Source: a virus
Length of the DNA: 64,000 nucleotides
Virus record (IMG/VR): IMGVR_UViG_3300002143_000153
Coordinates: 29,958-93,957 of that record
Reading direction: 5' to 3' (one strand)
Shown here: positions 1 to 57,288 of the stretch, one piece after another
How positions within the stretch are numbered: the first letter of the stretch is position 1
How the letters are laid out: every line of letters starts with the position of its first letter
Notes under the pieces: model-generated
Databases searched by the model: none
What the model saw: the letters and a program-made list of their open reading frames with translations, nothing else
Told to the model about the DNA's origin: nothing
Translations under genes and position numbers: made by a program

Positions 1-3000
1 AAATCTCAACGTAAAAATGCTTTCAAAATAGTTAATACACCAGAAGCATTAGCTGAAGATTTAAAAATTGATGACTTTATTAATTGGGCTAAAAGAAACT
101 TACCTGATTTTATTCAAATAGTTGATATAGCTGAATTAAAAAATAAACTAAAAGCTAATGGTTATACTGCAGGTCAGTTTACAATGGCTTTAAGAAATAT
201 TGCTGGTGGTGTAGAAGTAAGCGGTACTATATACACAGGTCCTTCAAGTATGATTGCTTACCATGAAGCTTTTCATAGTGTCTTTAGAATGCTGCTTACA
301 GATGAAGAACAAACTAAATTATTAAAAATTGCTAAAGATGAAGTAAGAGCTAAGTTTAAAACACCAGAAGCTTTAATGGAAGACATGTTGCAATTTCAAA
401 CTCTTAGCCCTTTATATAAAAGCATGAGTCTTAAAAGACTTGAGCGTGAATATCTAGAGGAATATATGGCTGATGAGTTTGCTAAGTTTAAACAAAATCC
501 TAGAAGTACAAAAACATCTTCTATAATTAAATCCCTATTTAATAGAATAATAGAATGGATTAAAGCAGCATTAAAACGTTATAGTAAAAATGAACTTATC
601 AATGTGTTTGAAAACATTGATGCTGGTAAATACAAAGGTGGTGCTGTAGCAGATAACTTTTATACTAAAGATTTAGATGGTGATATTACTATTGAAGCCT
701 ATAAAGCAATTCCATATGAATCAATTAATGGTGAGCTATTTGCTTCTGAATTATTTTTAGATCCTGCAACATCTGATTTATTAATAAGAATGATTGCTAA
801 TACATATCTAGAAAGAGTTAGTAAAGCAAAGACTAATATTGAAGAAAACAAAGTTAAAGATCAACTTTCAAATTTATTAAGCAAGTATAGCAAATTAAAT
901 GATGAAGATCAAACTGAAGAGATTACATCTGAAAAAGTTTATATAGGCGCTGTTATAGCAGATTATGCTGATTTGTATTATCCGGGTAGAGATATCTATA
1001 ATGGAGATAAATTTAGTGATTCTCAAGCTGAAAAATTAGAACAAATTTATAAAGCTTTAACTTTAGATGATGGAGAAAAAGTTGCTGATGAAGTAGCAGA
1101 TTATATTTCTTTATTTGATATGAAGTTTGAAGAAATAAATAATGAAATAGATTATCTTGAAAATTCAATTGGTAGTAGAAGTGTAGACCAATATGGTAGA
1201 GAAAATCAAGAGATAGGTATTCAACCCAGTAAAAAAATTAGACTATATATTGCATCAACAATAGTAACTTCAAAAGACATGTTTGGTAATACTGAATTGC
1301 TTAATGGTGAACCCATAAAAGTAGCTGTTAAATACCAAGATGTACACAATGGTTTAATGCTTGCTGCAATGAATGAGATAGATCCTTTTAAAATGATTAC
1401 AAGAATGTATTACCATTCAAGAAGATCTTTAAATACAGCAGCTGTACTTGATAGATTTTTAAATGATGTTGGTATCATAAATGGGTCAAGATCTATGAGT
1501 GATGTTATTGATTCAGGTGAATTACCTACGGATATTAAAGATACTTTATTATATCATGAGTTTATAAAAACTTATAAAAATAGTAGATTTGATTATGCAT
1601 TTCATTTAAAAGATAAAAAATTAGGTAAAGCAATTATTATTTCAGCATCTCAATCAGATGCTGCTACTGCGCAAATAGATTCTTGGAAAAAATTCCATGG
1701 AGATAAGTTTGAATTATTTAAACAAAATGATAAAGCCTTGAACCAAGCTGTTTCATCTTTAACTTTACTATCTAAAACATTAGGTAAAAATAAGATTACT
1801 AATAAGGAGTTATCTGCATTAGCTGATTCTTTATCAAAGAATATTTTTGAAGACCTTGGTATAAGTTTTAGCCGTGGTTTCTTAGAGGTAAGCATTTCTT
1901 CTTCTATTGTTAACAAGAAAAAATATCAAAAAAACTTAACGGAAGTTGGTGAAAACATAAGACTTATTACTAAAGAAGATGCTTTGCAAATGTTACTTGC
2001 CTTACGTGTAAAAGTAACATCAGACGTAGGTTCAAAAATTGTTAAATTTAGACCTGAAAATTTATTTGTAGATGTTGAAGGTAAAGGAGTAAGTTCTAGA
2101 TTAATGTCTTTAGCTTTAGGTAACGCTCATTTTGATGAAGCGATTGGAGCTACTGTATTTACAGATGTTAATGATAAACTTATATACGCACACCAACATC
2201 AAACATATCATTCAAGAAGAATAGCTCAGTTAAATAGTGAAACTTTTTTAACTGAATTAGTTGAAGAAAATGCATTTCTAGAAAAAAATATTCTTACTGA
2301 TAACTTGGCTTTTAGACAAATGGCCAAAGATAAAATGCTTGCAATTACTAGAGTTTCTGGTACTAAAAATGCAGATCTTTCAAATAGTCAAATTGATAAT
2401 TTATCAGATGCAGCATTAAAAGAAGAAGGTGTTACTTATGGTGATATGAGTTCTGCTGAATTTATAAATACACTTGTTGATTTATATGTACAATCTTTTA
2501 ATACTAAAAGTGAAACTAATGAAAAAATAACTTATAAGAATGAAGAGGGTTTTACAGAAACTATTGCAAAAGCACCTGTTCTTTTAAGAATTATGGAAGC
2601 ATCTAATACAAATGATTTAGTTTCTTTACCTGTTATTAAAACTGTAAGTATGACTGATAATAATGAATGGTCTATAACAGATAATGCATTACAGTTATTT
2701 GCTAATGAAATTGAAAGGGAATATAATGCAATAAAAGAAAACTTTAAAAAAGGAATTCAAGGCTTTGATGGTATTGACGGATACAATGATATGCAATCAG
2801 ACAGAAGTGATAAAGGAAGAGGTTTTAAATTCTTTAAAATGGATGTTTTATTAAATGATGAAAACAAAAAAGTTTATCTAGAAGCAGCTGAAGCAGGTTT
2901 GAATTTTACTGAAGCTTATCCTATAAATAGTTTAAAGAATGATTTAAATAAAGAATTGCAATCTTTATTAGATTCATTTGATATAATGCTAAAAGATGAA

Positions 3001-6000
3001 AAATTAGCTACTCTTCAAAACAATAATAAAATTAAATTTAATTTTTCAAGTTTAGTTACCGGTTCATTCCCAAAAACAGAAAAAGGTAAAAGAGCAATGG
3101 AAGAATTAAATCTTTCTGAGAATGATCAGTCATTTAACATAGCTCAAATATTTTTAAATAACTTTTTAAATACCATGGCAATTAATCAATTAATACTTGG
3201 TGAAGAAGCTAGACTATTTAAAGATCCTTTTATTGATGCAATCAAAAGAGCTAAAATGCAAAATACAGCACCTATCTCTGTAGAGAGTTATGCTATTGAT
3301 AAAGCTAAAGGGATTAATCATACATTAGGTGACGACTCTATTTCATTGATTACAATGGAAGATGCTTTATACGATCAAGTATTTACAGACAAATCTGTAA
3401 GAGGTAAAGGAGAAAAAACAGATGCACAAACATATATAACATCAAAAGGCTCTAGATATTTTAATTATGGTTTAGGGCAATTAACTGACGCAATGGTTCA
3501 GCTTCATAATAAAATTGATGCCGGTGAAATAATTACTTCAGAAGATTGGTATGGTAATAAAAACAATATAGGATTTTTAAAAGCAGGTGCTATATTAAAT
3601 TCTCAAAAGTATGTGTATGGAGACGGGCAATCTTTTATAAAAATGTCTACTGTTACATTAACTAAGGAAGAAACATCTGATTTGGTTAATGGTGTGTGGG
3701 TTGCTAAAATTGGTATGGAAGAGTTACATAATACCAGGGAAATGATGGAGGAGTATGAAAAAACAAATCCTACAAAAGTTGCTTTTTTAGCGCCTAGATC
3801 TGCAGTTAAAATGTTAAAAAGTAGAGTGCATTCACTTTCAAGAATAACAGATAATAAATCACCTTTAAAAACAACTGATGTAACACCTATAAATGCAAAA
3901 GATTTTGGTTTACAACAAGTTAATCCTTCTAATAAACTAGAAGTTACTTTACCTAACCAGATTAAATCTTTAATTACCAGTGAACAAAAAGATTCTGAAA
4001 TAGTAATTATAAACGGTATGCCTCTAGAAATAGGTGCTATTAAAAAAGCATACCACAAGCTTACAAAAGAAGGTGTTAAATTTGAATTCAGACAAAAGAA
4101 AAATCTAATGTTTGATTTGTTGCCTGTACTAGATTTAGATATTTTATCCTCAATGGAAAAAGATAGTACAATAGATGCAAATTTGGCAACATTCTTACGT
4201 GCGGCAAATAACTATTTAAAGTCTTCTGCTGCAGGTAGTAATATGGTTGAGTTCTTTAAAACTAATAAAGGTTATGCTAAATATGAATTAAATAATCCTA
4301 TAACTATTAAAAAGTTTGAACAATTCTTTTTAGCTTATTTTAGTAAAAAAGTTTTAGCTGAAAAAGTAACAGGTCATGCTTTTGCATTAAAATCTGGTTT
4401 TGGAAAATCCATAATTAGAAAAGTATATAGTTTAGATTCAGAAGGTAATATTGATAAGCAAGATGTTATTAGAAGAAAAGTTCATCAACAAAATGGTAAT
4501 AAAGAAGTTACTATAGATTTAAGAACAGAAAATGGTTTTGAACAACTTAAAGAAGCTTTAAAAAATAATTCTGAAGGTGTTACAGTTATTGATAGACTTA
4601 GAATAAACTTACCTAAATATAATAAGATAGGAGCTGTTAAAGATTGGGTTGCAACAGGTGAAAGAATAGCTGAAACTATTGTACCTGCTCACTACAAAGA
4701 AGTAATGGATCTGATTGAAAATTGGAATTATAATAAGTATGGAAGAATACCAGATGTAATTGCTAGAATGTTTGTTGTTAGGATTCCATCTCAAGATAAA
4801 CATTCAGCTTTAAGTGTAGAGGTTGTAGATTTTGATCCTGTATTCTTAGGATCAACTGCTGTATTCCCTGATGAACTTATTGAAGTATCGGGTGCAGATT
4901 TTGATATTGATAAAGTATTTGCTCATATTAAAGAATGGTATATAAAAAAAGGTGAGTTTATTGAATATGGTAGATCTAATGCTACAGAAGAAGAAAAGTA
5001 TGATGACTATATTTATAATTCAAATAAGTTAATTAATAAAAAAGATTCTTATTTATATGATGCTCTATATAAATATAATACCATAGGTGGTTCTAAGATT
5101 AATGCATTAAAACCAAAGCAAAGAAAAGAACTTCTTAAAGATAAAAACTTTAAAGAAGAAACTTTAGATGCTTTATCAATGCTTAATTTACCAAGAACTT
5201 TTAAGGAATACACAGTCTATAAAGAAAAATATGGTGTTGAACCATACAAGGCTGCTATAAATAATCAATTACTTGATTTAAAAATGGCTCTTGTAAGTAA
5301 TAAAGCTATGACAGAATCTATTAATGGTGATACACCTTTAGCTTTTCAACCTGCAGATATAGAAGCTTTAAAAGCTGAAAAGACACGTTTATTTAATGAA
5401 TTCCCTCAATTAAAAGCATTATCAAAAGATGATTTTCCTATTGATAGTTTAATAGGTCAATACTATAGTCATCTTAATGTTAAACAAAATGCTAATCTAA
5501 TTGGCGCTGTTGTGCCTAGAAACGTAGTTATAAATTTCTTAAAGGAAATAGATGTAACTTTAAATAGCAAATGGGGTGAAATAAATGTTAATGACCAACC
5601 GCTTACTAAATTTGAAAACTTTACTAAAGATTCTTCCGGTGTAAGATCTCAATATTTGTTATCTAATCTTATAAGTGCTGCTACAGATGATGCTAAAGAA
5701 AGAATATTATCTGCACTTGGTTTTAATAAAGATGCTATAGGTATTGTAGAAACAATGCTGGCCATGGGGTTATCTGTACATACAGCTACAATGTTTGTTA
5801 ATGTTCCTGTTATAAGGAATGCTATGAAAGAAAGTGATCCATCTATAATTAAAACAGCAATATCAAATGTAGGTACAGATAAAGATGTAAATGTTACAGA
5901 TTTAATTTTATCAAATGCTATTAATAAGACAGCTACTCCAGAAGAGTTATTAGGTATATATAAAACTTTTAATAAATTTAAAAATATAAAAGTGTTCATA

Positions 6001-8508
6001 GATAACTTAATACCTATTTTTAATTTAAATACGGGATTTGGTAAAGATTTTACCAGCTTAGAAGAGGTTCAACAAGGAATTGATGAATTGGGTATATATC
6101 TATCAGATGTAGAATTTAATAAAAACAAGTTACCTTTTGATATAAGAAATGGTATTAAAAACCATTATATTTCAGGTTACTTAGAAATTTTTAATGAGTT
6201 TACAGAAGCAGTTCTACCTAGAGTTTTCTTAACGCAAACTGCTAAGTTTAAGGAATTAACTTCTGGTATATTTGGTTATAGTAGTTTTTCTGCAAGCAAA
6301 AAAGTAAAAGGTAAAGATCAAATTTCTAAAAATGTTTTAGCTTATGTAACAATAAAAGCTTACATGAATCAGCTCTTTAAAAATGAAGAAGCTGCAAGTG
6401 CAATTGGTGGTTCATTAAACAATGACTTTATTTATGGTAATGGTAATTCAAACTATAACATTAATACAGTATTTAATAATTTAAGAGAAAACAATAAAGG
6501 TAAATCTAATTATTTTTTAGACTATTATGCGTCTACTCAAAAAGCTTCTGATAAAATTAATACTACAGGTTTAAATCTACTTAACTCAAACAGTTTTGGT
6601 AAACTAAGTGATAATGAAAAAGTACGTATTCAAAATGGTTTTCATCAATTGTATGGTGAGAAAGAAACAAGAGCTGATGCTGTTAATATAATACACTATG
6701 TAATGATTAAAGACGGTCTTCAGTATGCAAATGGAAGTATACTTGATGCATTGGTTCCTTTTACTATGGAGAATTACTTAAGCGCATCTACAAAAGCATT
6801 TAATGTTTTTAAAGGTAATGATAATTTTGAAGACGTTTTTGGTGTATCATTTGAAGAATTAAAAGATGAAGTAATAACTAAATATGGTAGAGCTACATCA
6901 TATGCATCAAACATATATAAACTTTCTCCTGAATATTTATTTAAAGGAAAAGATTCTCCGTTTGCTTATGAAGAAATAAAACTTGATGATACTCTAACAT
7001 ACACTAGAGTCATGTCTAATGATAAGTCTAAACCTAGTAAACCTTTATTTAAATTTCCTTTATTCATAAATAGAAGAGTAAAAGATCCAATAAATGGTAA
7101 TTCAGAAGGTTACATAAATAATTATTATGTACTAACAAATGCAACTTTAAATGGTGAAGATGTAATGTGGAAGAGAGGTGCTGGTGCCATAGATTCTGAT
7201 AAAGTAACTTATGTTAAATATGAATTAGAAGGTGCTTATAAACAAAACATTATTGGTTTTATGTTTGATAATGAAAACTACAAAAGACCTACAATCAAAG
7301 AACTAATAGCGTATAGACAAAGTCTTAATGACTTTTCTTCATATAGAGATGACTTTGATGATATTGATTTTGATGATATTGATTTTGAGGATATTTTAAT
7401 GGAAGAAGCTGAATCTAACAAGTTTACATTTTCTTCAGTTGATGAAAGTAGTGTAGTAGCAAATGAAAAAGGAATTGCTATTGATGATATAAATATTTCA
7501 GATTACAAACGACCTGAAGGTGTTGAAGATGCGGAGAATAAATTGCTTAAGTTTATGGCAAACAAATCAAATCCAGCACAACCAGCTACTGGTGCTGAAG
7601 AAGTGTTATCTATACAAGATGTTTTAAAAGAATATACCTTAGAAGAATTAAAACAAGGAGTTAATCTTAGGTCATTACAGGATAAAGTATTAAAAGGTGA
7701 TGAAGAAACTATTAAAACTGCATATAACTACTTAAAAGCATATGAAAAGGTAGAGTTATTAAAAAAAGAGTATGATAATACAGTAGAAAAAAATAAGGAA
7801 ATTACTACAAAGATTAATAGTCTAACTCAAAGAATTAATGATACTATACCAACAAAAGTTGGAGATGTGCTTGATATATCTAATGATGAAAATATGTCTG
7901 ATTATAAGGCTAGATTATTAGAGATAACAAGAAATGAAAAAGGTGCTGTATTAAAAATTATAACAGCAAAGAAAAAAGAATATACACTTGTAGTTACTAA
8001 GGAAGGAGAAACTAAAACAGGATATGTAACTAATTTTGTATTTGAATCAAGCAAAGAAGATGTTGGAACATTAAGAGCGGATAAAGAAAATCTAAAAAGT
8101 CAATTAGTTTCTGTTAAAGATTACTTTGATTATGATAATGCATTTTCAAAAATATGGAAAGATTATTTTATACCCACTCAACCATCTACTAGTGTTGAAC
8201 CAGGAGTACAAGAACTATTTGATTCTAATCCTAAATTAGCTAATGCTGTATATGGAGCTTTAGGGTTTCCTATCATTAATGAATCAGAAATAACTTATAC
8301 AGATGAAAACGGTAATCCTTGTGCTAAAATAGGATTAACTAATACTACTAAAGGAACAGGTTGGAAAATAGTTAAAGATTTTAAAGGACAACCTAAACAT
8401 AGTCAAGGTGGTGTAGATATTATTATTTCTGATAAAGGAATAAGTATGAGAAAAAGCGGTAAAGATATAAAAGCTAAGTTTGGATTATTAATATCTAATA
8501 ATAATTAA
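1..8508 (+). CDS. Giant virion-packaged DNA-dependent RNA polymerase of crAss-like phages (5'-truncated by the window edge), with zincin-like domain
   Basis: Frame is open from base 1 to the ATG at 184, so the true start is upstream. Catalytic SGADFDIDK (DFDID at 4897-4911) preceded by RIPSQ, as in double-psi-beta-barrel RNAPs of phi14:2/crAss type; HEAFH zincin motif at 262-276; >2800 aa. Confidence 0.9.
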   Translation, partial: KSQRKNAFKIVNTPEALAEDLKIDDFINWAKRNLPDFIQIVDIAELKNKLKANGYTAGQFTMALRNIAGGVEVSGTIYTGPSSMIAYHEAFHSVFRMLLTDEEQTKLLKIAKDEVRAKFKTPEALMEDMLQFQTLSPLYKSMSLKRLEREYLEEYMADEFAKFKQNPRSTKTSSIIKSLFNRIIEWIKAALKRYSKNELINVFENIDAGKYKGGAVADNFYTKDLDGDITIEAYKAIPYESINGELFASELFLDPATSDLLIRMIANTYLERVSKAKTNIEENKVKDQLSNLLSKYSKLNDEDQTEEITSEKVYIGAVIADYADLYYPGRDIYNGDKFSDSQAEKLEQIYKALTLDDGEKVADEVADYISLFDMKFEEINNEIDYLENSIGSRSVDQYGRENQEIGIQPSKKIRLYIASTIVTSKDMFGNTELLNGEPIKVAVKYQDVHNGLMLAAMNEIDPFKMITRMYYHSRRSLNTAAVLDRFLNDVGIINGSRSMSDVIDSGELPTDIKDTLLYHEFIKTYKNSRFDYAFHLKDKKLGKAIIISASQSDAATAQIDSWKKFHGDKFELFKQNDKALNQAVSSLTLLSKTLGKNKITNKELSALADSLSKNIFEDLGISFSRGFLEVSISSSIVNKKKYQKNLTEVGENIRLITKEDALQMLLALRVKVTSDVGSKIVKFRPENLFVDVEGKGVSSRLMSLALGNAHFDEAIGATVFTDVNDKLIYAHQHQTYHSRRIAQLNSETFLTELVEENAFLEKNILTDNLAFRQMAKDKMLAITRVSGTKNADLSNSQIDNLSDAALKEEGVTYGDMSSAEFINTLVDLYVQSFNTKSETNEKITYKNEEGFTETIAKAPVLLRIMEASNTNDLVSLPVIKTVSMTDNNEWSITDNALQLFANEIEREYNAIKENFKKGIQGFDGIDGYNDMQSDRSDKGRGFKFFKMDVLLNDENKKVYLEAAEAGLNFTEAYPINSLKNDLNKELQSLLDSFDIMLKDEKLATLQNNNKIKFNFSSLVTGSFPKTEKGKRAMEELNLSENDQSFNIAQIFLNNFLNTMAINQLILGEEARLFKDPFIDAIKRAKMQNTAPISVESYAIDKAKGINHTLGDDSISLITMEDALYDQVFTDKSVRGKGEKTDAQTYITSKGSRYFNYGLGQLTDAMVQLHNKIDAGEIITSEDWYGNKNNIGFLKAGAILNSQKYVYGDGQSFIKMSTVTLTKEETSDLVNGVWVAKIGMEELHNTREMMEEYEKTNPTKVAFLAPRSAVKMLKSRVHSLSRITDNKSPLKTTDVTPINAKDFGLQQVNPSNKLEVTLPNQIKSLITSEQKDSEIVIINGMPLEIGAIKKAYHKLTKEGVKFEFRQKKNLMFDLLPVLDLDILSSMEKDSTIDANLATFLRAANNYLKSSAAGSNMVEFFKTNKGYAKYELNNPITIKKFEQFFLAYFSKKVLAEKVTGHAFALKSGFGKSIIRKVYSLDSEGNIDKQDVIRRKVHQQNGNKEVTIDLRTENGFEQLKEALKNNSEGVTVIDRLRINLPKYNKIGAVKDWVATGERIAETIVPAHYKEVMDLIENWNYNKYGRIPDVIARMFVVRIPSQDKHSALSVEVVDFDPVFLGSTAVFPDELIEVSGADFDIDKVFAHIKEWYIKKGEFIEYGRSNATEEEKYDDYIYNSNKLINKKDSYLYDALYKYNTIGGSKINALKPKQRKELLKDKNFKEETLDALSMLNLPRTFKEYTVYKEKYGVEPYKAAINNQLLDLKMALVSNKAMTESINGDTPLAFQPADIEALKAEKTRLFNEFPQLKALSKDDFPIDSLIGQYYSHLNVKQNANLIGAVVPRNVVINFLKEIDVTLNSKWGEINVNDQPLTKFENFTKDSSGVRSQYLLSNLISAATDDAKERILSALGFNKDAIGIVETMLAMGLSVHTATMFVNVPVIRNAMKESDPSIIKTAISNVGTDKDVNVTDLILSNAINKTATPEELLGIYKTFNKFKNIKVFIDNLIPIFNLNTGFGKDFTSLEEVQQGIDELGIYLSDVEFNKNKLPFDIRNGIKNHYISGYLEIFNEFTEAVLPRVFLTQTAKFKELTSGIFGYSSFSASKKVKGKDQISKNVLAYVTIKAYMNQLFKNEEAASAIGGSLNNDFIYGNGNSNYNINTVFNNLRENNKGKSNYFLDYYASTQKASDKINTTGLNLLNSNSFGKLSDNEKVRIQNGFHQLYGEKETRADAVNIIHYVMIKDGLQYANGSILDALVPFTMENYLSASTKAFNVFKGNDNFEDVFGVSFEELKDEVITKYGRATSYASNIYKLSPEYLFKGKDSPFAYEEIKLDDTLTYTRVMSNDKSKPSKPLFKFPLFINRRVKDPINGNSEGYINNYYVLTNATLNGEDVMWKRGAGAIDSDKVTYVKYELEGAYKQNIIGFMFDNENYKRPTIKELIAYRQSLNDFSSYRDDFDDIDFDDIDFEDILMEEAESNKFTFSSVDESSVVANEKGIAIDDINISDYKRPEGVEDAENKLLKFMANKSNPAQPATGAEEVLSIQDVLKEYTLEELKQGVNLRSLQDKVLKGDEETIKTAYNYLKAYEKVELLKKEYDNTVEKNKEITTKINSLTQRINDTIPTKVGDVLDISNDENMSDYKARLLEITRNEKGAVLKIITAKKKEYTLVVTKEGETKTGYVTNFVFESSKEDVGTLRADKENLKSQLVSVKDYFDYDNAFSKIWKDYFIPTQPSTSVEPGVQELFDSNPKLANAVYGALGFPIINESEITYTDENGNPCAKIGLTNTTKGTGWKIVKDFKGQPKHSQGGVDIIISDKGISMRKSGKDIKAKFGLLISNNN

Positions 8509-10793: not shown

Positions 10794-13700
10794 ATGAGTA
10801 AATGTTATAATAAAAATACCGCGGAGTATAAAGCTTTACAAACAGCATTTCCAAATGATGCTGCTGTAAATAACGTAATTTCACAATGGCAAAACCTAAC
10901 AAAACTGGATGAGTTTCCAACTGTTATACAAGCTAAAAAAATAATTAAGGATGGTAAAGTTGCATTTTCTTTAAAGCAAAGAAGTTTTGCTGAGTCTTTA
11001 CTAGGTAATTTAAGCCGTTTGAAAATGGCAAGTAAATCCAATAAGCATGGTGGGTATTACTATGTTAACAATACTCTGGAAAATCAAAGAGTATATGATA
11101 AAGATGCTTTAGAAAACAATAGAAAAAGAATAGTAAGATACCTTAGCATCAATAATATTCCTGAAGGTACTGTTACTTTAGCAAAAACAAAAAGATCTTA
11201 TAGGGTAACTATAAATGAAGATATGTTTACTGCTAAAGATATATTACCTAAAACTAGAAATAATACAGGCACACATACCACCGATGTTTTAAGTCACTTA
11301 AAAAGAATATTTCCAGATTTAAGTATATACATACCATCAGTAGAAAAAGCTGAAGCTTATTATAATAGTTTAGATCCATCTGTAAAAAGCGGAGTTCCTT
11401 TTTCTGAAGTTAAATCTTTTTATTATGATGGTAATGTAATTCTTATAAAAGGACGTGTTGATAATGAAACAGCAATTGAAGAAGTACTGCATGCATTTAC
11501 AGATACTTTAGCTTATGTAAAGCCTGATTTATTTAAAAGTCTTTTGGAAGAAGCTAAAAAAACATTTCCTGTATTAAGTCAAGAGATAGAAGATGCTTAT
11601 ACTAAAAGAAGAAAGTTTACTCAAAAACAAAGAGATCTAGAGTTAGTAACACAAGCTTTAACAAGACACTTTGCTAAAGAGTATGAAACAGAACCTACTA
11701 AATCTTTTTTAGCAAGAGTTGCTGACATGCTTAAATGGTTTGCTAGTGTCATTAAAGACTTACATAAATTTATTACAGTCAATGGTATAATCAAATTAAA
11801 AGTTGAAGATATTAAATCAACAACTAAAATGTCTGATATTGCTAAATTATTAAATACTAGTGAAATACAATTTGAGTTAACTAAACCTAAACAGTCACAA
11901 GTAAGATATGCATTATCAGATGAGAAAGCTGAATACTTAAAAAGAATTCTTAAGCCTGCTAATCCAGTGCAAACTCAGATGGCTAATAAGTTATTAAGTG
12001 TTGTGCAAAATACAGATAGCGTTGAAGATTCTTATTCTGTAAGCAAAGCTAATTTAAATGAAGGTGATGATATTGTAATTTTAAATGAAGCTGATCATAC
12101 TTATTATAATCTTTTTGATCTAAAAAAAGAATATACTTCTGCTACAACAGCAATTAATGGTAAGATGAGTAATGTAGAACAAGACAATGTTAAACTCAAT
12201 CTTGAAATTGGAAATGATTTTGATAGCATTGCTGAAGGTATTGCAGCATGGAAAACTTTTGATGAAATAAAAGGTAGCATTAAAAAGTTAAGTGAAGAGC
12301 AAGCAGTGAAAGCTTACTCTGAACTATATGATTATATTAATAATTCAATAAGAAAACCGGGTGATATAATAATTCCTCAAGTTGTTGTGCATGATGATAA
12401 AACAGGTCTTGCTGGAACTATTGACTTTTTATTAATAACACCTCAAGGTAAATTAAAAATCATTGACATTAAAACAAGTAAATACAAGTACGCTACAACA
12501 GAAAATACTAAGTATGATGAACCTTGGGATATAAAGCCTGACTCTAGACTTTATCCTTATAATGTAAAACGTCTTTCAGCAAAACAAAAACATAATCTTC
12601 AAGTAAACTTGTATAGAAGAATGCTTGAAAATATGGGTTATGAAATTGAAGATTCTGATCAAGCTACAAGTACTTATCATATTTGGGTTGATATTACAGG
12701 TTCCAAAAAAGATCAAGTATGGGCTGGTAATTTTGAATTAGAACAACCTTATTTTCATCCCATTACAGAAAATGAATTTTATGTTAATGCACTTATACCT
12801 AAAAATGTAAATACCATTTCAAAGAATAAGATTGATAATGCACGTAAAGAGTCTGATGATTATCCATTAATGAATGATGAAGATTTTGCTGATATAAGTT
12901 CTGATATGGGTATGACAGATGATGCTGGTGGTATTGAATTTGAACTTCTATTTCAAGGATTAGAAAATTACAGAACAAAGTTAATTCAAAGAATTGAAGT
13001 TTTAAAAACGGTAAAAGGAGCCATATTCACAGACCTAAGTAAAGAACAAACAATTAAAAGATTAAACCTAGCTATAACAAATGTTACACTAGCTTTAACT
13101 TCAGGTAATGGTCAAAAAGCTTCTGATATATATACAAAGTTTCTTACAGATTCAATAAGGGAAGTAGAAACTTTAGAAAAATATTTGATAGATGAAAATA
13201 ATATAGCTAACTCTGATTACATTTCAAAAGCTAGAAACGCTAAATCATTTGCAGAATCTTTTGAAGGTTTGACAAGTATTTCTTCTACTTATGGTAATCT
13301 TAATTCAACACAAACTAAATTAAAAGATAATTTAATTAATAGTTTAAATAGACTTGCTGGGTCTACAATAAATCAAAGAATAAGTATTGCTGATAAAGCT
13401 ATATTAAAGCATGTTCAAAAACTAACAAAAGACACAAGTACAAAAGAGATGTCAGATGAAGAATTTGAATTGTTATTTAAAGAAGCTGAAAAAATAACAG
13501 GAGCAACATTAAATTTTACAGATATAACTACATCTAGTGATACTCTTTTAGCTGTAATGAAAAAAATATGGCATCAAAAAAGAGAAGAAGCTTTAGATAA
13601 AATTGGTGAAAGAGAGCAAGCAATTGTAGCTGCAGGGTCTTATCTTAGAAAACTTTCTCCTGGATCAACAGATAAAGAAGTTTTTGAATTTATAATTGAA

Positions 13701-16520
13701 ACAGATGATAAAGGAAATCACACAGGTCGTTATGTTGTTGAAATAGGTGAGCAATATTGGAATATATATGATGAACTTGAAAAACAAATAAATGATACAG
13801 ATGGCACAAGATTACAGTATAGAGAAATACTTGATTTAGAAAATGCAAATCCTAAAGATATAGAATTCAATAAAGATTTATATCATAAGAAAAAAGCTTG
13901 GAATAAGTTTTTAAATCCTGAAACTAGAAATGGTTCTGATTATTCAGATGGTGATTATCATTACTATACTGAAGAATTTAAAACAATAAGATCTGAATAT
14001 AAAGAATTTATACCCGTTGGTGAAAATGGTTATTGGCAATTTAAAAGCAACATTTCAGCAGATGAACAATCTTATTATAATTTAACGTACACAAATGCGG
14101 TTGAATACTATAAATCTCAAAATATTGAGGATATACCTACAGGTATGGTTATTAAAACTTTTGGTAATTTTCCTTTAAAGAAATATATAAAGATAAGAGA
14201 CTTCAGCAGTGCTGGTAAAGACATGCGTAGTACTAAGTATAAAACTATTATGGATGCTGCTTCTGGGGATGCTTTAGGGCAAGCCAGAAAATCTTTTTAT
14301 ATGGTTGTAAAGAAGTATTATGAGGATGGTATGCTAAAACAAATTCCTGAGAACGTTAGAGATTATATGTTAGGTAAAACACCTAGAATACAAGCTAATC
14401 TTGCAAATCAACTTGCTAAAAGTCCTGCTCCAGTAACTAGTTTTTTAGCTAGAACTAAGGAAAATATAAAAGATTTCTTTACAGAAACAACACGTTTAAG
14501 TAGAGTTAACGTAGATGAAAAAGGTGAAATTGTAGATTCATTACCAATTATGTTTGTTGGTACACTAAAAGATGATGAATCAATAAAAAAACTTCAAGAT
14601 GAAATTGAAGAGCTTAAACAAAAATATGCTAACTCTGAAATAACTTCTACCTTTTATGATATAAAAATAAAAGAACTACAATCTAAAGAAATAAGTTTAA
14701 GAAGTAAACCAAGAGCTGAAGAGTTAAGTTGGGATGTTGTTTCAACGTTACTTACATTTAGTGTAATGGCTCAGACATATGAGACAATGTCATCAATAGA
14801 AGATACACTATTATCTTTTGTTAAAGTTATAGAAGATAGAAAGTATAAAGAACCCTCTTCTTCTAAAGCAAAAAAAATGATATCTGCAAAATTTTCTAGT
14901 ACATTCAATAGAAAAGGTGGTGATGTAGAAGCTTTAGCAGAAGGTAGAGATTCTAATAATGCTAAACACGCAAGAGCATTTATGAATATGGTATTCTATG
15001 ATAATGCTGAAGTTACTAAAGGTATGGCTGAAAAAGCTGTAGATAAAGTTATACAATACAGTTCATTAGCTTATGTAGGCTTTAACGTTTTTGGTAACTT
15101 TAATAACTATGTTTTAGGTAGAATAAATAATGGTATAGAAAGCATGGGTCAAAGATTTGTTTCTAGAGAAGCTTATGTAAGAGCGTCTAAAGAATTTAAT
15201 AAAAGAGCTATTGCCGATCTAATTCATAGAACATCATACCTAGCCATCAAAAAAACAACTGGTGCAAAATATGATCCTTATAAAGCAATAAGTAAATATG
15301 AAGCTTTTGTTGACTTATATAGAATGATGGATCAAAAGTCTGATCTTAGAGAAGTTGGTAGAAATTATGATGAAAAAAGTTTTTATCAAAAGTATGTTGC
15401 AGGCATAGGTTATATATTCCAAGATGCAGCTGAGTATAATGTTCAGACTAAAATGGGTATGGCTATAGTAATGGATACATATATACTTAATGAATCAACC
15501 GGGCAAATTTTAAGTTTGTACGATGCATTTGATTTTAATGGTGAACAAGAATTACAACTTAAAGAAGGGTTTACTAAAATGGTAAAACCTAAAAAAGATA
15601 TACCAACATTTAAAACAATGCTTCAAGGGAATGTTTATCAAAAAGATGCTTCTGGTAATTTAATTTATGATATACAAGGTGACTATAATGAAAAGTTTAG
15701 ATATGATCTTAGGATGAAAATTCGTGAGGTTAATAAACAAATCCATGGTAACTATGCTTATGAAGATAGAATGGTTATTCAAGTTCATACTTGGGGTAAA
15801 CTACTAGCTCAATTTCATAAATGGGTTGTTCCTGCAATTAGGGCTAGATTTCAAAAAAAGTATTTTGATGAAAATTTAGGCTGGTTGGAAGGACGTTATA
15901 ACTCTTATGCTAACTTTATGGTTTATTTGTTTAAGAATATTGCAAAAACAAAAGATACTGAAAAAAGCATAATAGAAAACTGGATGATAGATACAGGTTT
16001 TAAAAATAATAATTCTCAGAAAGATGAACAGTTTATAAATGCTGCTTTAAATGTACATAGAACAAATGCGGAACTTGCAATTTTAATAGCTACTATAATA
16101 ACTCTAAATTTATTAAAAGGTATATGGGCTGATGATGATGATGATGAAACAGTTAAAAGACTTAAAAATTTATCATTGTATCAATTAAGTAGAGTAAGAT
16201 CTGAGATGCAATTATTTTTACCTTTACTTGGTGTATCAGATGCCTTACAGTTTTTTGAAAGTCCTTTTGCAACAACTAAAGTTTTAGGCGAATTTGGTGA
16301 TGTAATGGATAAATCTTGGGATTTAATGGCTGGTGGTGCAAGATATTATATTACAGGTAATGATGAAGATTGGTATGGGAATAAAAATGTTTATTACCAA
16401 AGAGGTAGAAGAGCTGGTCAAAAGAAAATTACCAAAGAAATAATTGATTTAGGACCAGGATTGTTAGTTTGGAAGAAATGGGATGATGCTATTCAGAATA
16501 ACACTTTTTATATTGATTAA
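10794..16520 (+). CDS. Large virion (ejected/cargo) protein with degenerate zincin-like and PD-(D/E)xK nuclease-like domains
   Basis: 1908 aa next to the vRNAP; EEVLH (HExxH-like); LAGTIDFLLITPQGKLKIIDIKTS...QVNLY is a RecB/PD-(D/E)xK motif set. Confidence 0.7.
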   Translation: MSKCYNKNTAEYKALQTAFPNDAAVNNVISQWQNLTKLDEFPTVIQAKKIIKDGKVAFSLKQRSFAESLLGNLSRLKMASKSNKHGGYYYVNNTLENQRVYDKDALENNRKRIVRYLSINNIPEGTVTLAKTKRSYRVTINEDMFTAKDILPKTRNNTGTHTTDVLSHLKRIFPDLSIYIPSVEKAEAYYNSLDPSVKSGVPFSEVKSFYYDGNVILIKGRVDNETAIEEVLHAFTDTLAYVKPDLFKSLLEEAKKTFPVLSQEIEDAYTKRRKFTQKQRDLELVTQALTRHFAKEYETEPTKSFLARVADMLKWFASVIKDLHKFITVNGIIKLKVEDIKSTTKMSDIAKLLNTSEIQFELTKPKQSQVRYALSDEKAEYLKRILKPANPVQTQMANKLLSVVQNTDSVEDSYSVSKANLNEGDDIVILNEADHTYYNLFDLKKEYTSATTAINGKMSNVEQDNVKLNLEIGNDFDSIAEGIAAWKTFDEIKGSIKKLSEEQAVKAYSELYDYINNSIRKPGDIIIPQVVVHDDKTGLAGTIDFLLITPQGKLKIIDIKTSKYKYATTENTKYDEPWDIKPDSRLYPYNVKRLSAKQKHNLQVNLYRRMLENMGYEIEDSDQATSTYHIWVDITGSKKDQVWAGNFELEQPYFHPITENEFYVNALIPKNVNTISKNKIDNARKESDDYPLMNDEDFADISSDMGMTDDAGGIEFELLFQGLENYRTKLIQRIEVLKTVKGAIFTDLSKEQTIKRLNLAITNVTLALTSGNGQKASDIYTKFLTDSIREVETLEKYLIDENNIANSDYISKARNAKSFAESFEGLTSISSTYGNLNSTQTKLKDNLINSLNRLAGSTINQRISIADKAILKHVQKLTKDTSTKEMSDEEFELLFKEAEKITGATLNFTDITTSSDTLLAVMKKIWHQKREEALDKIGEREQAIVAAGSYLRKLSPGSTDKEVFEFIIETDDKGNHTGRYVVEIGEQYWNIYDELEKQINDTDGTRLQYREILDLENANPKDIEFNKDLYHKKKAWNKFLNPETRNGSDYSDGDYHYYTEEFKTIRSEYKEFIPVGENGYWQFKSNISADEQSYYNLTYTNAVEYYKSQNIEDIPTGMVIKTFGNFPLKKYIKIRDFSSAGKDMRSTKYKTIMDAASGDALGQARKSFYMVVKKYYEDGMLKQIPENVRDYMLGKTPRIQANLANQLAKSPAPVTSFLARTKENIKDFFTETTRLSRVNVDEKGEIVDSLPIMFVGTLKDDESIKKLQDEIEELKQKYANSEITSTFYDIKIKELQSKEISLRSKPRAEELSWDVVSTLLTFSVMAQTYETMSSIEDTLLSFVKVIEDRKYKEPSSSKAKKMISAKFSSTFNRKGGDVEALAEGRDSNNAKHARAFMNMVFYDNAEVTKGMAEKAVDKVIQYSSLAYVGFNVFGNFNNYVLGRINNGIESMGQRFVSREAYVRASKEFNKRAIADLIHRTSYLAIKKTTGAKYDPYKAISKYEAFVDLYRMMDQKSDLREVGRNYDEKSFYQKYVAGIGYIFQDAAEYNVQTKMGMAIVMDTYILNESTGQILSLYDAFDFNGEQELQLKEGFTKMVKPKKDIPTFKTMLQGNVYQKDASGNLIYDIQGDYNEKFRYDLRMKIREVNKQIHGNYAYEDRMVIQVHTWGKLLAQFHKWVVPAIRARFQKKYFDENLGWLEGRYNSYANFMVYLFKNIAKTKDTEKSIIENWMIDTGFKNNNSQKDEQFINAALNVHRTNAELAILIATIITLNLLKGIWADDDDDETVKRLKNLSLYQLSRVRSEMQLFLPLLGVSDALQFFESPFATTKVLGEFGDVMDKSWDLMAGGARYYITGNDEDWYGNKNVYYQRGRRAGQKKITKEIIDLGPGLLVWKKWDDAIQNNTFYID

Positions 16521-54783: not shown

Positions 54784-54867
54784 AAGTTTTGGTTTAATGT
54801 GTTAAGGAAAAAACTAGAGTATGCTAACGGTAATAGCATACTCATAGTTTAATCATGAGTTTACCAT

Positions 54868-54901
54868 CTGCTCACACTTCAAAAATGAGAATGGTACATT
54901 A
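54868..54901 (-). ncRNA. Degenerate 5' half of the twister-like unit (unit 0)
   Basis: UAA-UGUA-CC-AUU-CUCAU-[UUUUGAAGU]-GUGAG-CAG; loop mutated and 3' half absent. Confidence 0.5.
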
Positions 54902-55070
54902 ATTAATCACTTTAATCCCCTATAACGGATAACTTATGATATATGGTTACTACACCAGTTTGTATTATCAATACTTATTTATCCAAAGAGGTGATAAAAT
55001 CCTCTTTTTAATCTACTGTTGCCTTTTGGCTTTAAGAGTATCAAGCAGTAAGATTTACTTGACACAATAG

Positions 55071-55168
55071 TACCCTCTGCACTCAGTTGTAAGGACTAGA
55101 TGCATAATCTCTAGTATTATTTCCAAACTTACAACTGCTCACCCTTGGGAAGTGAGAATGGTACATTA
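55071..55168 (-). ncRNA. Twister-like self-cleaving ribozyme, unit A (34-nt cargo in P5)
   Basis: UAA-UGUA-CC-AUU-CUCAC-UUCCCAAGG-GUGAG-CAGUUGUAAG...CUUACAACUG-AG-UGCA-GA-GGGU. Confidence 0.8.
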
Positions 55169-55169
55169 A

Positions 55170-55421
55170 TTAATTCCTATTTATATCTAGGTTGGTTATC
55201 AAATCAGGAGTCATACCAAATTCAATAGCTTTAACTTGCAAATCACTAAGTATATATGATGTTGCAATGAGTTTAGGAACATAACCCATATTGGTTAAAG
55301 TTCTTTCAAATATAGAAGACAGTGTGTCAATAACAATGACAGCTGTGTTATCAATTGTATTCAAGTATAAGTTATACATAGTAAGTACAGCTTGGTTTTG
55401 TGTTGTTGTTAATTCTTTCAT
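55170..55421 (-). CDS. 83-aa hypothetical protein between ribozyme units B and A
   Basis: ORF track; AT-rich leader typical of the phage's genes. Confidence 0.6.
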   Translation of the reverse strand: MKELTTTQNQAVLTMYNLYLNTIDNTAVIVIDTLSSIFERTLTNMGYVPKLIATSYILSDLQVKAIEFGMTPDLITNLDINRN

Positions 55422-55455
55422 AAGTTTATTTTCTTTTATTATTTGATTGGTTAGA

Positions 55456-55637
55456 TACCCTCTGCACTCAGTTGTAATAGAACAGCCATTTTCAGCCTGT
55501 ATAAGTGTCTGCTTTCAAGACATAAACTTGGTCAATTATCATAGGATGCATATTTCCCTTGCCTGATAACATACTGAAGTCAACACTTTTTATTCTATTA
55601 CAACTGTCTCACCTTGGGAATGAGAAATGGTGCATTA
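55456..55637 (-). ncRNA. Twister-like ribozyme, unit B (110-nt cargo)
   Basis: UAA-UGCA-CC-AUU-UCUCA-UUCCCAAGG-UGAGA-CAGUUGUAAUAGAA...UUCUAUUACAACUG-AG-UGCA-GA-GGGU. Confidence 0.8.
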
Positions 55638-55752
55638 CTTAGTTGTAATCCGTATAACATAAATACTATTCTCAACAAAACAGTGATTGCTGCTTTACAT
55701 GCTTATGAATAATCTGAGTTCTTGTTAATACTAATTAAGAATTACAACTTAA

Positions 55753-55936
55753 TACCCTCTGCACTCAGTTGTAATAGGTTTTTAGTGTGTAGAATGTTTC
55801 ATGAATTAAATGAGCCGTAATTTCCAACTATTACTGTCCGACCAGTTTATAATTGCGCTTCTGTTTAATATCATATATCTACTTATCACTGTCTATTACA
55901 ACTGCTTATCCTTGGGAAATAAGTTGTGGTGCATTA
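55753..55936 (-). ncRNA. Twister-like ribozyme, unit C (115-nt cargo)
   Basis: UAA-UGCA-CC-ACAA-CUUAU-UUCCCAAGG-AUAAG-CAGUUGUAAUAG...CUAUUACAACUG-AG-UGCA-GA-GGGU. Confidence 0.8.
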
Positions 55937-56131
55937 GTAAAAATAGTACTGTTGTTTTATCCTAATAACATTTCTGGAATGACCAAAGAAGTTGATTAAC
56001 GTTGATATGAGCTTATTACCCCTTATCTATAGTTGAGGTAATATTCTAAGTATTAGTGACAATTTATTAGAATTGTCCTAATCTTCTTTGGATATCTTTA
56101 TTGTTAGGTAACAGTACTATTAGTTTGTTTA

Positions 56132-56362
56132 TTAAAAAGGAGTTTCTACAACTCCCTCATTCCAATAGCCTAATGCTAAAAACTTTTTACCATCTCTGGT
56201 TAAAGTTATGACATCAAAGCCATTAACATCTGTTGCTACTAATTCTGCAGTATCCCAATGTATTATACCAAGAAACTTTCCAGTTAGTGTTTCTGAATCA
56301 GTATCAACTAAATGAATTAGTTGAATAGGTTCTTTTTTTAATAGGTTTATTATTTTTACCAT
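56132..56362 (-). CDS. 76-aa hypothetical protein inside the ncRNA island
   Basis: ORF track. Confidence 0.6.
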   Translation of the reverse strand: MVKIINLLKKEPIQLIHLVDTDSETLTGKFLGIIHWDTAELVATDVNGFDVITLTRDGKKFLALGYWNEGVVETPF

Positions 56363-56555
56363 TTCTTTCTTTATTTAAATTGTTAAAAAATTACAGAGTT
56401 CGGGTTAGTATTGATAGATATTGAATAAAATATCAAGTATGCTGAACCGCTTCAGCAGATTTTATCGTGTGTGAGCATATAGTAGTTATCTGCAGATTCT
56501 AACTATACTCTAGGAGGTTGGCGGGCTTTTCCTCTTTTTATACTTGATATAAGTT

Positions 56556-56680
56556 TTTATATACACTCAGTTGTAATACCAATAAGGGTTTTAGACTACT
56601 ACATTAGAGTTTCGTCTGCACCTATTTGATCATTAACTTATTACAACTGCTCACTCTGATTAAGTAAGTTATGGGTATTA
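56556..56680 (-). ncRNA. Degenerate twister-like unit D (60-nt cargo), probably catalytically inactive
   Basis: P4 CUUAC/GUGAG and P5 CAGUUGUAAUA/UAUUACAACUG kept; loop is UUAAUCAGA and the GA-GGGU segment is lost. Confidence 0.55.
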
Positions 56681-56835
56681 AAAAATTAGACAGTTTCACT
56701 TCGCATTATATCTGTCTAGAACCCCGCTTCTAGGGTTTTAATTTGTTGGATTCTGGTACCAACACCTACATACTTGAAATATATAGACCCTATGGCTTCA
56801 CTAATGTTTTTTTAAGAACATCACCCCCATAGTTG

Positions 56836-57000
56836 TTGTACTCTCACAAGGTTGCAACCCCTTGATATATATCTCATAAAACAACATAACATTAATAGTA
56901 GGACCGTGTTACTAAGTCTAGTCCTCCTTTATTAATGTAACAACTCTATTAAGTTATTTTGCTTTACTTGGTAATAAACCTGCTCGGATGAGAGTAACAA
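56836..57000 (-). ncRNA. tRNA-like structured RNA (acceptor-like stem plus T-arm-like hairpin)
   Basis: UACUCUCA...CAAGG-GGUUGCAA-CCUUG-UGAGAGUA with a long internal hairpin ACAUUAAUA...UAUUAAUGU. Confidence 0.5.
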
Positions 57001-57261: not shown

Positions 57262-57288
57262 GAAAGCAGGGATTATTACCCTGCCTTC
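57262..57288 (-). terminator. Hairpin after the 90-aa paralog
   Basis: Minus strand GAAGGCAGGG-taataat-CCCTGCTTTC. Confidence 0.5.

What the first reader, a model, noticed from the sequence alone, without database searches (positions are those of the whole stretch)
54868..56680. Tandem array of twister-like ribozymes, each carrying a different cargo RNA in a conserved P5 stem
Seen: read on the minus (transcribed) strand, three units (55071-55168, 55456-55637, 55753-55936) share UAA-UGYA-CC-N3/4-[P4]-UUCCCAAGG-[P4']-CAGUUGUAA-(variable)-UUACAACUG-AG-UGCA-GA-GGGU. P4 differs but always pairs (CUCAC/GUGAG, UCUCA/UGAGA, CUUAU/AUAAG), i.e. covariation. Known: twister has UAA-P2-GC...P4 loop GUCCCAAGC...P2'-GA-GGG. 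Here P2 (UGYA/UGCA), the catalytic G, the T1 pseudoknot (CCC:GGG) and a compensatorily swapped T2 (CC:GG instead of GC:GC) are all present. Deviations are a U for G at the first loop base and a weak or absent P1. The P5 loops hold unrelated 34-, 110-, 115- and 60-nt sequences. Two further units (54868-54901, 56556-56680) are decayed. Inference: a constant-scaffold/variable-cargo system in the early region that cuts one transcript into a panel of discrete small RNAs (antisense, decoy or anti-defence effectors).
Basis: partly seen in the sequence, partly recalled or inferred. Interest (0 to 1): 0.93.

Follow-up and report, generated by a model that had tools for sequence, protein, structure and literature searches.

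The report
Phage twister-like ribozymes with variable inserts
Three intact and three decayed copies of a previously uncatalogued, phage-specific variant of the twister self-cleaving RNA sit in a 2.4-kb RNA-rich island among a phage's early genes, each with a different structured insert in one stem; the family is found in hundreds of environmental phage contigs and most likely cuts early transcripts without host enzymes.

Summary
On the minus strand, 55936-55753, 55637-55456 and 55168-55071 are three intact units of one motif. Two decayed units flank them, and the hairpin between units 1 and 2 is the leftover P5 and insert of a sixth. About 200 distinct units show covariation in P2, P4 and P5. 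The twister T1 pseudoknot is also supported: a search for 3' halves reading GAGUG returned 14 family members, and all 14 have the compensating CAC in loop L4. The cleavage-site AA and the G-A after P2' are near-invariant. The first C covaries with the G just 5' of P2', giving a 5-bp P2. The last G pairs with the base before UCCCAAG. That leaves only an invariant C:G for T2. Rfam twister models do not detect any unit. P1 is weak in the window but present in relatives. Inserts are extremely diverse, sit on 9-16 bp stems and show no antisense match in the phage. Most relatives carry a single unit just upstream of a small ORF. I read these as a new twister variant that processes early transcripts; an effector role for the inserts is untested.

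The parts
55753..55936 (-). Unit 1: intact twister-like unit. Predicted cut between U55936 and A55935. P4 is CUUAU/AUAAG. A 12-bp P5 encloses a 115-nt insert.
   Evidence: I14; 71.6 bits; the MFE fold gives P2, P4 and P5
55636..55754 (-). Remnant of a further unit: a P5-like hairpin (AGUUGUAAU/AUUACAACU) with about 81 nt inside, lacking both ribozyme halves.
   Evidence: I3; homologous to P5 plus insert of a full unit in L032:2440-2570
55456..55637 (-). Unit 2: intact unit. Predicted cut 55637/55636. P4 is UCUCA/UGAGA. A 14-bp P5 encloses a 110-nt insert. The same insert occurs in L011 with a different P4.
   Evidence: I8; 72.9 bits
55170..55421 (-). 83-aa ORF between units 2 and 3. It starts 34 nt after unit 2, and its stop codon lies 1 nt before unit 3.
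   Evidence: homolog in L122 (53% over 55 aa, E 1e-12)
55071..55168 (-). Unit 3: intact unit. Predicted cut 55168/55167. P2 is UGUA/UGCA with one G.U. P4 is CUCAC/GUGAG. A 10-bp P5 encloses a 34-nt insert.
   Evidence: 85.9 bits
56549..56688 (-). Decayed unit. The UCCCAAG core is deleted and the 3' half lacks GAGGG. It keeps UUAAUCAG, the 3' end of the module found in the L4-insertion subclass.
   Evidence: 27.6 bits, E 4e-4
54829..54909 (-). Decayed unit. The 5' half is intact up to P4, L4 has mutated to UUUUUGAAGU, and there is no 3' half.
   Evidence: D1, 81%; 21.3 bits, E 0.02
56689..56733 (-). Accessory two-hairpin element (M3) about 8 nt upstream of the decayed unit. It has a conserved loop AUAUAAUGCGAAGUGAAA on a covarying stem.
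   Evidence: in L127 and L195 it sits 7 nt upstream of intact units
56836..57000 (-). tRNA-like or other structured RNA (M2) at the head of the island. UACUCUCA pairs with UGAGAGUA and encloses a variable part and a CAAGG/CCUUG hairpin.
56132..56362 (-). 76-aa ORF inside the island. No homolog was found among the fetched loci.
57262..57288 (-). Terminator-like hairpin at the upstream edge of the island.
54817..54843 (-). Terminator-like hairpin at the downstream edge of the island.

Best explanation
The units are cis-acting self-cleaving ribozymes of a phage-specific structural variant of the twister class. Their order is: (optional P1) - N^AA - P2 (5 bp) - C - 3 to 4 nt - P4 (5 bp plus a closing pair) - loop U-CCC-AA-G - P4' - P5 (9-16 bp, carrying a variable insert) - A - P2' - G-A - GGG.

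The loop CCC pairs with the 3' GGG, which is pseudoknot T1. The single bulged G probably pairs with the C that follows P2, a one-pair T2. Cleavage is predicted between N and the first A, leaving 2',3'-cyclic phosphate and 5'-OH ends.

The units are transcribed in sense with the small early genes. They would cut the island transcript at 55936/55935, 55637/55636 and 55168/55167. That would separate the small ORFs and the structured RNAs without any host nuclease, and would leave each downstream piece headed by a compact ribozyme fold. The P5 inserts are peripheral domains held away from the core by a long stem.

Shown: the secondary structure, T1, the conservation of the catalytic positions, the orientation and the spread of the family. 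Inferred: catalysis, the one-pair T2, and the role in processing or stabilising transcripts.
For: Structure: 98.3% of cells pair, 17 of 20 pairs carry double changes, and 0 of 500 shuffles reach the observed values; sliding the 3' partners drops pairing to 24-47%.

P4 is 5 bp in 128 of 135 units, with more than 25 sequence types.

T1 in units not selected on T1: CAC with GUG (4 units), UCC with GGA, CCA with UGG. Prediction test: a 3'-half pattern reading GAGUG retrieved 14 distinct family units, and all 14 have the loop UUCACAAGG. Converse test in metagenome contigs found by the 5' half only: 34 of 34 have GA then GGG after P2'.

Catalytic positions: the AA after the cut site is invariant while N-1 is U, C or A; the G after P2' is replaced by A in only 2 units. 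This matches the published tolerance of twister (PMC11662667).

The loop core UCCCAAG matches the rice twister P4/L4 sequence CCGGUCCCAAGCCCGG (PMC11662667).

A P1 of at least 5 bp next to the cut site occurs in 23% of units against 9.5% of shuffled flank pairs, and it covaries within the GAGUG clade.

Orientation: 112 of 130 units are sense to local ORFs, and 33 have an ORF start 25-50 nt downstream.

The motif is essentially confined to phage contigs.

P1 is dispensable for twister cleavage, and twisters with P5 cleave well (PMC5408937, PMC11662667).
Against: Rfam twister-P1 and all other Rfam models fail to match at E up to 10. This holds even for insert-free units of 54-62 nt and for a unit with a 9-bp P1.

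Two features called conserved or essentially invariant in twister are absent: the two-pair T2 and the G-C pair closing L4 (PMC5408937). T2 is described as the most critical tertiary contact, so a one-pair T2 could lower or abolish activity.

The C14:G30 pair is invariant and therefore untested by covariation.

The loci were collected with motif patterns and many are related, so cell counts overstate the number of independent events.
Confidence: 0.72

Rival explanations
1. The array is a constant-scaffold, variable-cargo system whose purpose is to make a panel of discrete, end-protected small RNAs, with the P5 inserts acting as antisense, decoy or anti-defence effectors. This model includes cleavage and differs from the best explanation only in what the units are for.
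For: Inserts are very diverse: 160 fall into 129 clusters, 3-327 nt long. Some are conserved between phages with compensatory changes inside them. The unit-2 insert recurs in L011 on a scaffold with a different P4. P5 has at least 9 contiguous pairs in 125 of 170 units, which insulates the insert from the core. Arrays of 2-4 units recur in relatives such as L071, L195 and L202. A remnant insert hairpin persists in the window without its ribozyme.
Against: A twister cuts only at its own 5' edge, so the insert is never released from the scaffold. 104 of 118 loci have a single unit. Insert-free units exist. The window's inserts have no significant complementarity anywhere in the 94-kb phage genome; the best matches are 12-13 nt at E 0.1 or more. 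There is no Rfam hit in the inserts. Host targets could not be examined because the host is unknown.
Confidence: 0.18
2. A non-catalytic structured RNA that descends from twister or converges on it. It would serve as a protein-binding or regulatory element in early 5' UTRs, with no self-cleavage.
For: All Rfam twister models miss it. The two-pair T2 and the invariant G-C closing pair are lost. The first three P5 pairs (CAG/CUG) are nearly invariant in sequence, as expected for a protein contact.
Against: Conservation is concentrated on the positions that matter for twister chemistry: the AA after the cut site, the G-A and T1. The position 5' of the cut is free to vary.
Confidence: 0.1
3. Allosteric ribozymes. 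The P5 inserts are sensor domains for a ligand, protein or RNA, and binding switches cleavage on or off.
For: The variable domain sits on a stem that enters the catalytic junction. Engineered twisters can be controlled through appended aptamers (PMC5052635, title and abstract seen).
Against: P5 stems are long and stable (9-16 contiguous pairs in about three quarters of units), so insert folding is decoupled from the core. Inserts share no common fold. Insert-free units keep the same core.
Confidence: 0.04
4. A DNA-level repeat with no RNA function, such as recombination sites, miniature transposable elements or operator arrays.
For: The P5 arms are inverted repeats flanking variable DNA. A deletion joining the GAGGG of unit 1 to a neighbour's P5 looks like recombination between units.
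Against: Pairing is kept through G.U pairs and compensatory changes, including a pseudoknot between distant segments. There is a strong strand bias relative to genes. No target-site duplications or transposase genes were seen.
Confidence: 0.02

Closest known systems
Twister self-cleaving ribozyme, type P1 with optional P5 (Rfam RF03160; Roth et al. 2014 as reviewed in PMC5408937 and PMC6154101)
   Same: The order of elements is the same: P1 - N^AA - P2 - junction C - P4 - loop U-CCC-AA-G - optional P5 - P2' - G-A - GGG. The T1 pseudoknot lies between the loop CCC and the 3' GGG. P1 is optional and P5 tolerates inserts.
   Different: P2 has a fifth pair, using the base that forms the first T2 pair in twister. 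The loop is one base shorter, so only one G is left for T2. The pair closing the loop is U.G, C-G or U-A rather than the near-invariant G-C. P5 is present in every unit seen here, against about 1% of twisters, and usually carries 30-130 nt. A subclass has a conserved module inserted inside the P4 hairpin. The Rfam models do not match.
Twister-sister ribozyme
   Same: A similar P4 loop flavour and an association with phage-like regions.
   Different: Twister-sister is described as lacking the double pseudoknot and as cutting the opposite strand (PMC5408937, PMC6154101). Here T1 is supported by covariation. There is no Rfam hit.
HDV-like theta ribozymes next to phage tRNAs (PMC10879173, title and abstract seen)
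   Same: Small self-cleaving ribozymes in phage genomes placed next to structured RNAs. In L086 and L127 the twister-like cut site directly abuts the 3' end of the tRNA-like element M2.
   Different: They belong to a different ribozyme class with a different fold. Theta ribozymes are tied to tRNAs. The units here mostly precede small ORFs.
Ribozyme clusters near phage genes in bacteria (hammerhead, twister, pistol, hatchet; PMC10085705)
   Same: Self-cleaving ribozymes enriched near other ribozymes and near phage genes, with no known biological reason.
   Different: Here the units lie in free phage genomes, in an early-gene RNA island, as arrays of a single variant class.
RNase III processing sites in the phage T7 early transcript (from my own knowledge, not checked here)
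   Same: Structured intergenic elements that cut a polycistronic early transcript into separate, stable messages.
   Different: The T7 sites need host RNase III. These units would be self-sufficient and would leave 5'-OH and cyclic-phosphate ends.

Membership tests
twister ribozyme | Cut site N-A followed by A, directly 5' of P2. The A is essential and N is free. | tested here: met
   The AA is invariant in intact units. N-1 is U in most units, C in 2 and A in 1.
twister ribozyme | P2 helix | tested here: met
   UGCA/UGCA, UGUA/UACA (20 units), UGCG/CGCA and CACA/UGUG are all seen. 3-4 pairs carry double changes.
twister ribozyme | T1 pseudoknot between the loop L4 CCC and the GGG that follows G-A | tested here: met
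   Double changes occur at all three pairs. The prediction test gave 14/14 and the converse test 34/34.
twister ribozyme | T2 pseudoknot of two pairs between the junction dinucleotide (NC) and two bulged bases of L4 | tested here: not met
   Pair 13-31 shows no double change and 3 mismatches. Position 13 covaries with the base 5' of P2'. Position 31 covaries with the base before UCCCAAG. C14 and G30 are invariant, so a one-pair T2 is possible but untested.
twister ribozyme | P4 with loop U-CCC-AA-G closed by a near-invariant G-C pair | tested here: inconclusive
   P4 covaries at all 5 pairs and the loop core is identical to rice twister. The closing pair, however, is U.G (201 units), C-G (18) or U-A (6), not G-C.
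twister ribozyme | Catalytic G followed by A, directly 3' of P2' | tested here: met
   GA in 34 of 34 independent metagenome units. G is replaced by A in 2 IMG/VR units.
twister ribozyme | P1 helix enclosing the core (conserved in phylogeny, dispensable for catalysis) | tested here: inconclusive
   At least 5 bp in 23% of units against 9.5% of controls; clear and covarying in the GAGUG clade. Only 4, 2 and 1 bp in the window's units.
twister ribozyme | Match to the Rfam covariance models | tested here: not met
   No twister hit at E up to 10 in the window, in the own genome, or in 111-251-nt stretches around insert-free and P1-bearing units.
twister ribozyme | Site-specific self-cleavage | not testable with these tools
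None of the listed metagenome contig matches starts at the cut site.
twister-sister ribozyme | No double pseudoknot; match to the Rfam model | tested here: not met
   T1 is supported here. No Rfam hit.

The most novel reading that the evidence does not exclude
The island is a phage RNA 'display cassette' system. Tandem ribozymes cut the transcript into scaffold RNAs whose ends (5'-OH and 2',3'-cyclic phosphate) resist the usual decay routes, or are joined into circles by a host RtcB-type ligase. Each scaffold presents a hypervariable, structurally insulated P5 domain that acts on host factors, for example as a decoy against defence systems. Cassettes would be shuffled between phages by recombination within the constant scaffold.
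Probability: 0.15. Interest if true: 0.9.

Novelty: new variant of a known kind. Interest (0 to 1): 0.74.

Why it matters
If the units cleave, this would be a large, phage-restricted branch of the twister class that current covariance models miss. In it, the contact regarded as twister's most critical tertiary interaction (T2) has been remodelled: one T2 pair is replaced by an extra P2 pair and the loop is shortened. Natural sequence variation would then provide a test of what the twister fold really needs.

It would also give a concrete, testable biological role for small ribozymes in phages, namely host-independent processing of early transcripts, where the function of bacterial and phage ribozyme clusters is still unknown (PMC10085705).

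The finding also points to a conserved early-region island of several modular RNAs: a tRNA-like element, an AUAUAA/GUGAAA module and twister-like units. The scaffold tolerates 3-327-nt inserts in P5 and a module inside P4, which is of practical interest for ribozyme engineering.

Tried and rejected
Rfam. No family reached the gathering score in the whole window. At E up to 10, nothing relevant appeared in the region, around three insert-free or P1-bearing relatives, or around three L4-insertion units. RF03160 gave no match in the own genome.

tRNA scan: none in the window.

blastn against isolate phages: no match.

Metagenome scan for contigs that begin at the cut site: none among the listed matches. 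These are probably DNA assemblies, so this says nothing about cleavage.

Antisense targets of the four inserts in the 94-kb genome: only chance-level matches of 9-13 nt.

Link to a gene family: the ORFs up- and downstream of 135 units fall into many small clusters.

Variants at the loop G that should form T2: the search returned chance matches plus two damaged units, so the pair could not be tested.

Type-P5 permuted reading across units 1 and 2: it is possible on paper because the P5 arms are identical (I15). However, the hairpin that would serve as P1 is homologous to the P5 plus insert of another unit, so I read it as a remnant.

CRISPR-repeat mimicry by the P5 stem was considered from memory only and not tested. 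The stem sequence varies and covaries, which fits a structural role.

Crassvirales assignment was not established. The DNA polymerase is only about 33% identical to isolate phages and the two giant ORFs have no PHROG match.
Full report
**What is in the window**

Read on the minus strand, 55936-55753, 55637-55456 and 55168-55071 share the layout UAA-UGYA-CC-(3-4 nt)-P4-UUCCCAAGG-P4'-CAGUUGUAA...UUACAACUG-AG-UGCA-GA-GGG.
- The 20-mer that spans the 3' half occurs three times against 0 expected. The loop 9-mer is exact only at these three sites.
- P4 differs in each unit and always pairs.
- The P5 arms enclose 115, 110 and 34 nt.
- A covariance model built from 30 short relatives scores the three units at 71.6-85.9 bits. 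It detects two decayed copies at 56688-56549 and 54909-54829, all on the minus strand.
- The hairpin between units 1 and 2 (55754-55636) is about 75-80% identical by eye to the P5 stem plus insert of a complete unit in locus L032. It is therefore the remnant of a sixth unit that lost both ribozyme halves.
- The whole genome record is 93,957 nt, 82% complete by CheckV, and has no further unit.

**The family**
A scan of JGI metagenomes did the same.
- A scan of one genome for each of about 185,000 prokaryote species found about 7 real copies. All are on contigs of metagenome-assembled genomes. The motif is therefore essentially a phage element.
- In 192 sources (191 loci plus the window) I parsed 136 distinct full units, and more after later scans.
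- Units without any insert exist, at 54-62 nt (L038, L124, L129, L039, L029). The core is therefore self-contained.

**Secondary structure**

On the model-based alignment of 123 hits (116 distinct), 98.3% of cells form standard pairs, 17 of 20 pairs carry double changes, and no shuffle of 500 reaches the observed values. Sliding the 3' partners by 1-3 columns drops pairing to 24-47%. All five P4 pairs and all six scored P5 pairs covary. P4 is 5 bp in 128 of 135 units, with more than 25 sequence types. P2 appears as UGCA/UGCA, UGUA/UACA, UGCG/CGCA and CACA/UGUG. Two caveats apply. The loci were gathered with motif patterns and many are related. The alignment is also fitted to the model's helices, although the pseudoknot columns are unpaired in the model.

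**The T1 pseudoknot**

Units that entered only as by-catch in loci fetched for another unit show CAC with GUG (4 units), UCC with GGA and CCA with UGG. These are compensatory changes at all three T1 pairs.
- Prediction test: I scanned IMG/VR for the 3' half reading GAGUG, with no constraint on the 5' half. Of 68 contigs, 14 distinct family units were recovered (12 of them new), and all 14 have the loop UUCACAAGG.
- Converse test: 34 distinct units from metagenome contigs, found by the 5' half alone, all carry GA then GGG after P2'.
- Together with the invariant AA after the cut site, a variable base before it, and a G-A after P2', this is the conservation pattern expected for twister chemistry. 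Published mutational data show that the A at +1 and the next A are essential, N-1 is free, and the G is the general base (PMC11662667).
- The loop core equals that of rice twister, CCGGUCCCAAGCCCGG (PMC11662667).

**Where it departs from twister**

Covariation points elsewhere.
- The first C covaries with the G immediately 5' of P2': C-G becomes U-A in several lineages, and 13 of 14 units in the GAGUG set keep a Watson-Crick pair there. P2 is therefore 5 bp.
- The last G of AAGG varies to A without any change at that C. It covaries instead with the base preceding UCCCAAG: U.G in 201 standard units, and C-G (18), U-A (5), U.G (4) and A-U (2) in the insertion subclass. That pair closes the loop, taking the place of the G-C pair called essentially invariant in twister (PMC5408937).
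- Only one bulged G remains, and it is invariant, as is the C after P2. A one-pair T2 is therefore my inference, not a tested result.
- Rfam's twister models do not match any unit, even at E up to 10 in 111-251-nt search spaces.
- P1 is weak in the window (4, 2 and 1 bp). It is enriched about twofold over shuffled flanks across the family and is clear and covarying in some clades. P1 is dispensable for twister cleavage (PMC5408937).

**Inserts**
- P5 has at least 9 contiguous pairs in 125 of 170 units, and inserts run from 3 to 327 nt.
- 160 inserts fall into 129 similarity clusters.
- Some clusters span phages and show compensatory changes inside the insert. The window's unit-2 insert recurs in L011 on a scaffold with a different P4. 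These inserts are therefore maintained, and are probably exchanged between scaffolds.
- They show no significant complementarity to the phage's own genome and no Rfam match.
- The long P5 argues that the insert is insulated from the core, which speaks against allosteric control.

**Context**
- 112 of 130 scorable units lie in sense with local ORFs (median opposite-strand coding is 0). A quarter have an ORF start 25-50 nt downstream.
- Neighbouring ORFs are diverse small proteins with no dominant family.
- 104 of 118 loci have one unit, 11 have two and 3 have three.
- Maps of relatives show the same island order as the window: small ORFs, a tRNA-like element M2, sometimes M3, then 1-4 twister-like units, then small ORFs.
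- In the window the island lies between terminator-like hairpins at 57288-57262 and 54843-54817. It sits about 2 kb downstream of the divergent region at about 59.1 kb and upstream of the replication genes.
- ORF83 between units 2 and 3 has a homolog next to the island of L122.

**Interpretation**

The best-supported reading is a new structural variant of the twister ribozyme that cuts early transcripts at intergenic positions. I put about 0.8 on the fold and on cleavage, and about 0.7 on the whole statement including the processing role. Because a twister cuts only at its own 5' edge, each product is the ribozyme plus its insert plus whatever follows up to the next site: about 299 nt for unit 1 and 469 nt, including ORF83, for unit 2.

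I found no description of this variant in the searchable literature. That library is incomplete, so prior publication cannot be excluded.

Noticed in passing
window 57000-56836 (minus); also L003, L048, L071, L086, L122, L127 and others: A second conserved structured RNA (M2). UACUCUCA-UCC(A/G)AGCAGG is followed by a variable 45-120 nt, then CAAGG-GUUGCAA-CCUUG-UGAGAGUA. The outer 8-bp stem abuts a 5-bp hairpin, like an acceptor stem and T arm. The 3' part is exact in 21 of 191 loci and lies 0-130 nt upstream of a twister-like unit. In L086 and L127 it ends directly at the predicted cut site. No Rfam or ARAGORN hit.
   Followed up: partly
window 56733-56689 (minus); L127, L195, L041, L092: A third element (M3): a CCC/GGG hairpin followed by a covarying stem with the conserved loop AUAUAAUGCGAAGUGAAA. 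It lies 7-8 nt upstream of a unit's UAA, in a position like twister P0. Its AUAUAA...GUGAAA signature resembles the module inserted in the L4-insertion subclass.
   Followed up: partly
L013:~900-1120, L197, L201, L192, L015, L194, L202, L032, L056, L007 and others: A subclass of at least 16 units carries a 75-270-nt insertion between the P4 5' strand and UCCCAAG. The insertion has conserved blocks GUGGAUAUAAAGACUUCUUA, UAAGAUGUGAAACCAC, UGAUUAA and UUAAUCA(G/U). In this subclass the loop-closing pair is mostly C-G or U-A. No Rfam hit. The window's decayed unit at 56688-56549 keeps the UUAAUCAG end of this module.
   Followed up: partly
L013:2401-2464: A tRNA-model hit (36.5 bits, above the gathering score) with the anticodon arm almost entirely missing. 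It is a tRNA-like RNA in a related phage contig.
   Followed up: no
window 58723-58700, 58148-58127, ~57720, 57288-57262 (minus): Each small early ORF is followed by a GC-rich hairpin with a U run and then a repeated AT-rich leader (UUAACAACAAUUUAAUUUAUAAAA..AUG). This suggests reiterated terminator or promoter-leader units in the early block.
   Followed up: no
window 184-8508 and 10794-16520 (plus): Two giant ORFs (2774 and 1908 aa) have no PHROG family match at E 1e-5. The DNA polymerase (29699-27660) is only about 33% identical to any isolate phage. The phage lineage is therefore poorly represented among cultured phages.
   Followed up: partly
L057:2726-2826, L115:2447-2584: Two otherwise intact units have A in place of the presumed catalytic G (GCAAAGGG). 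They may be natural attenuated or inactive copies.
   Followed up: no
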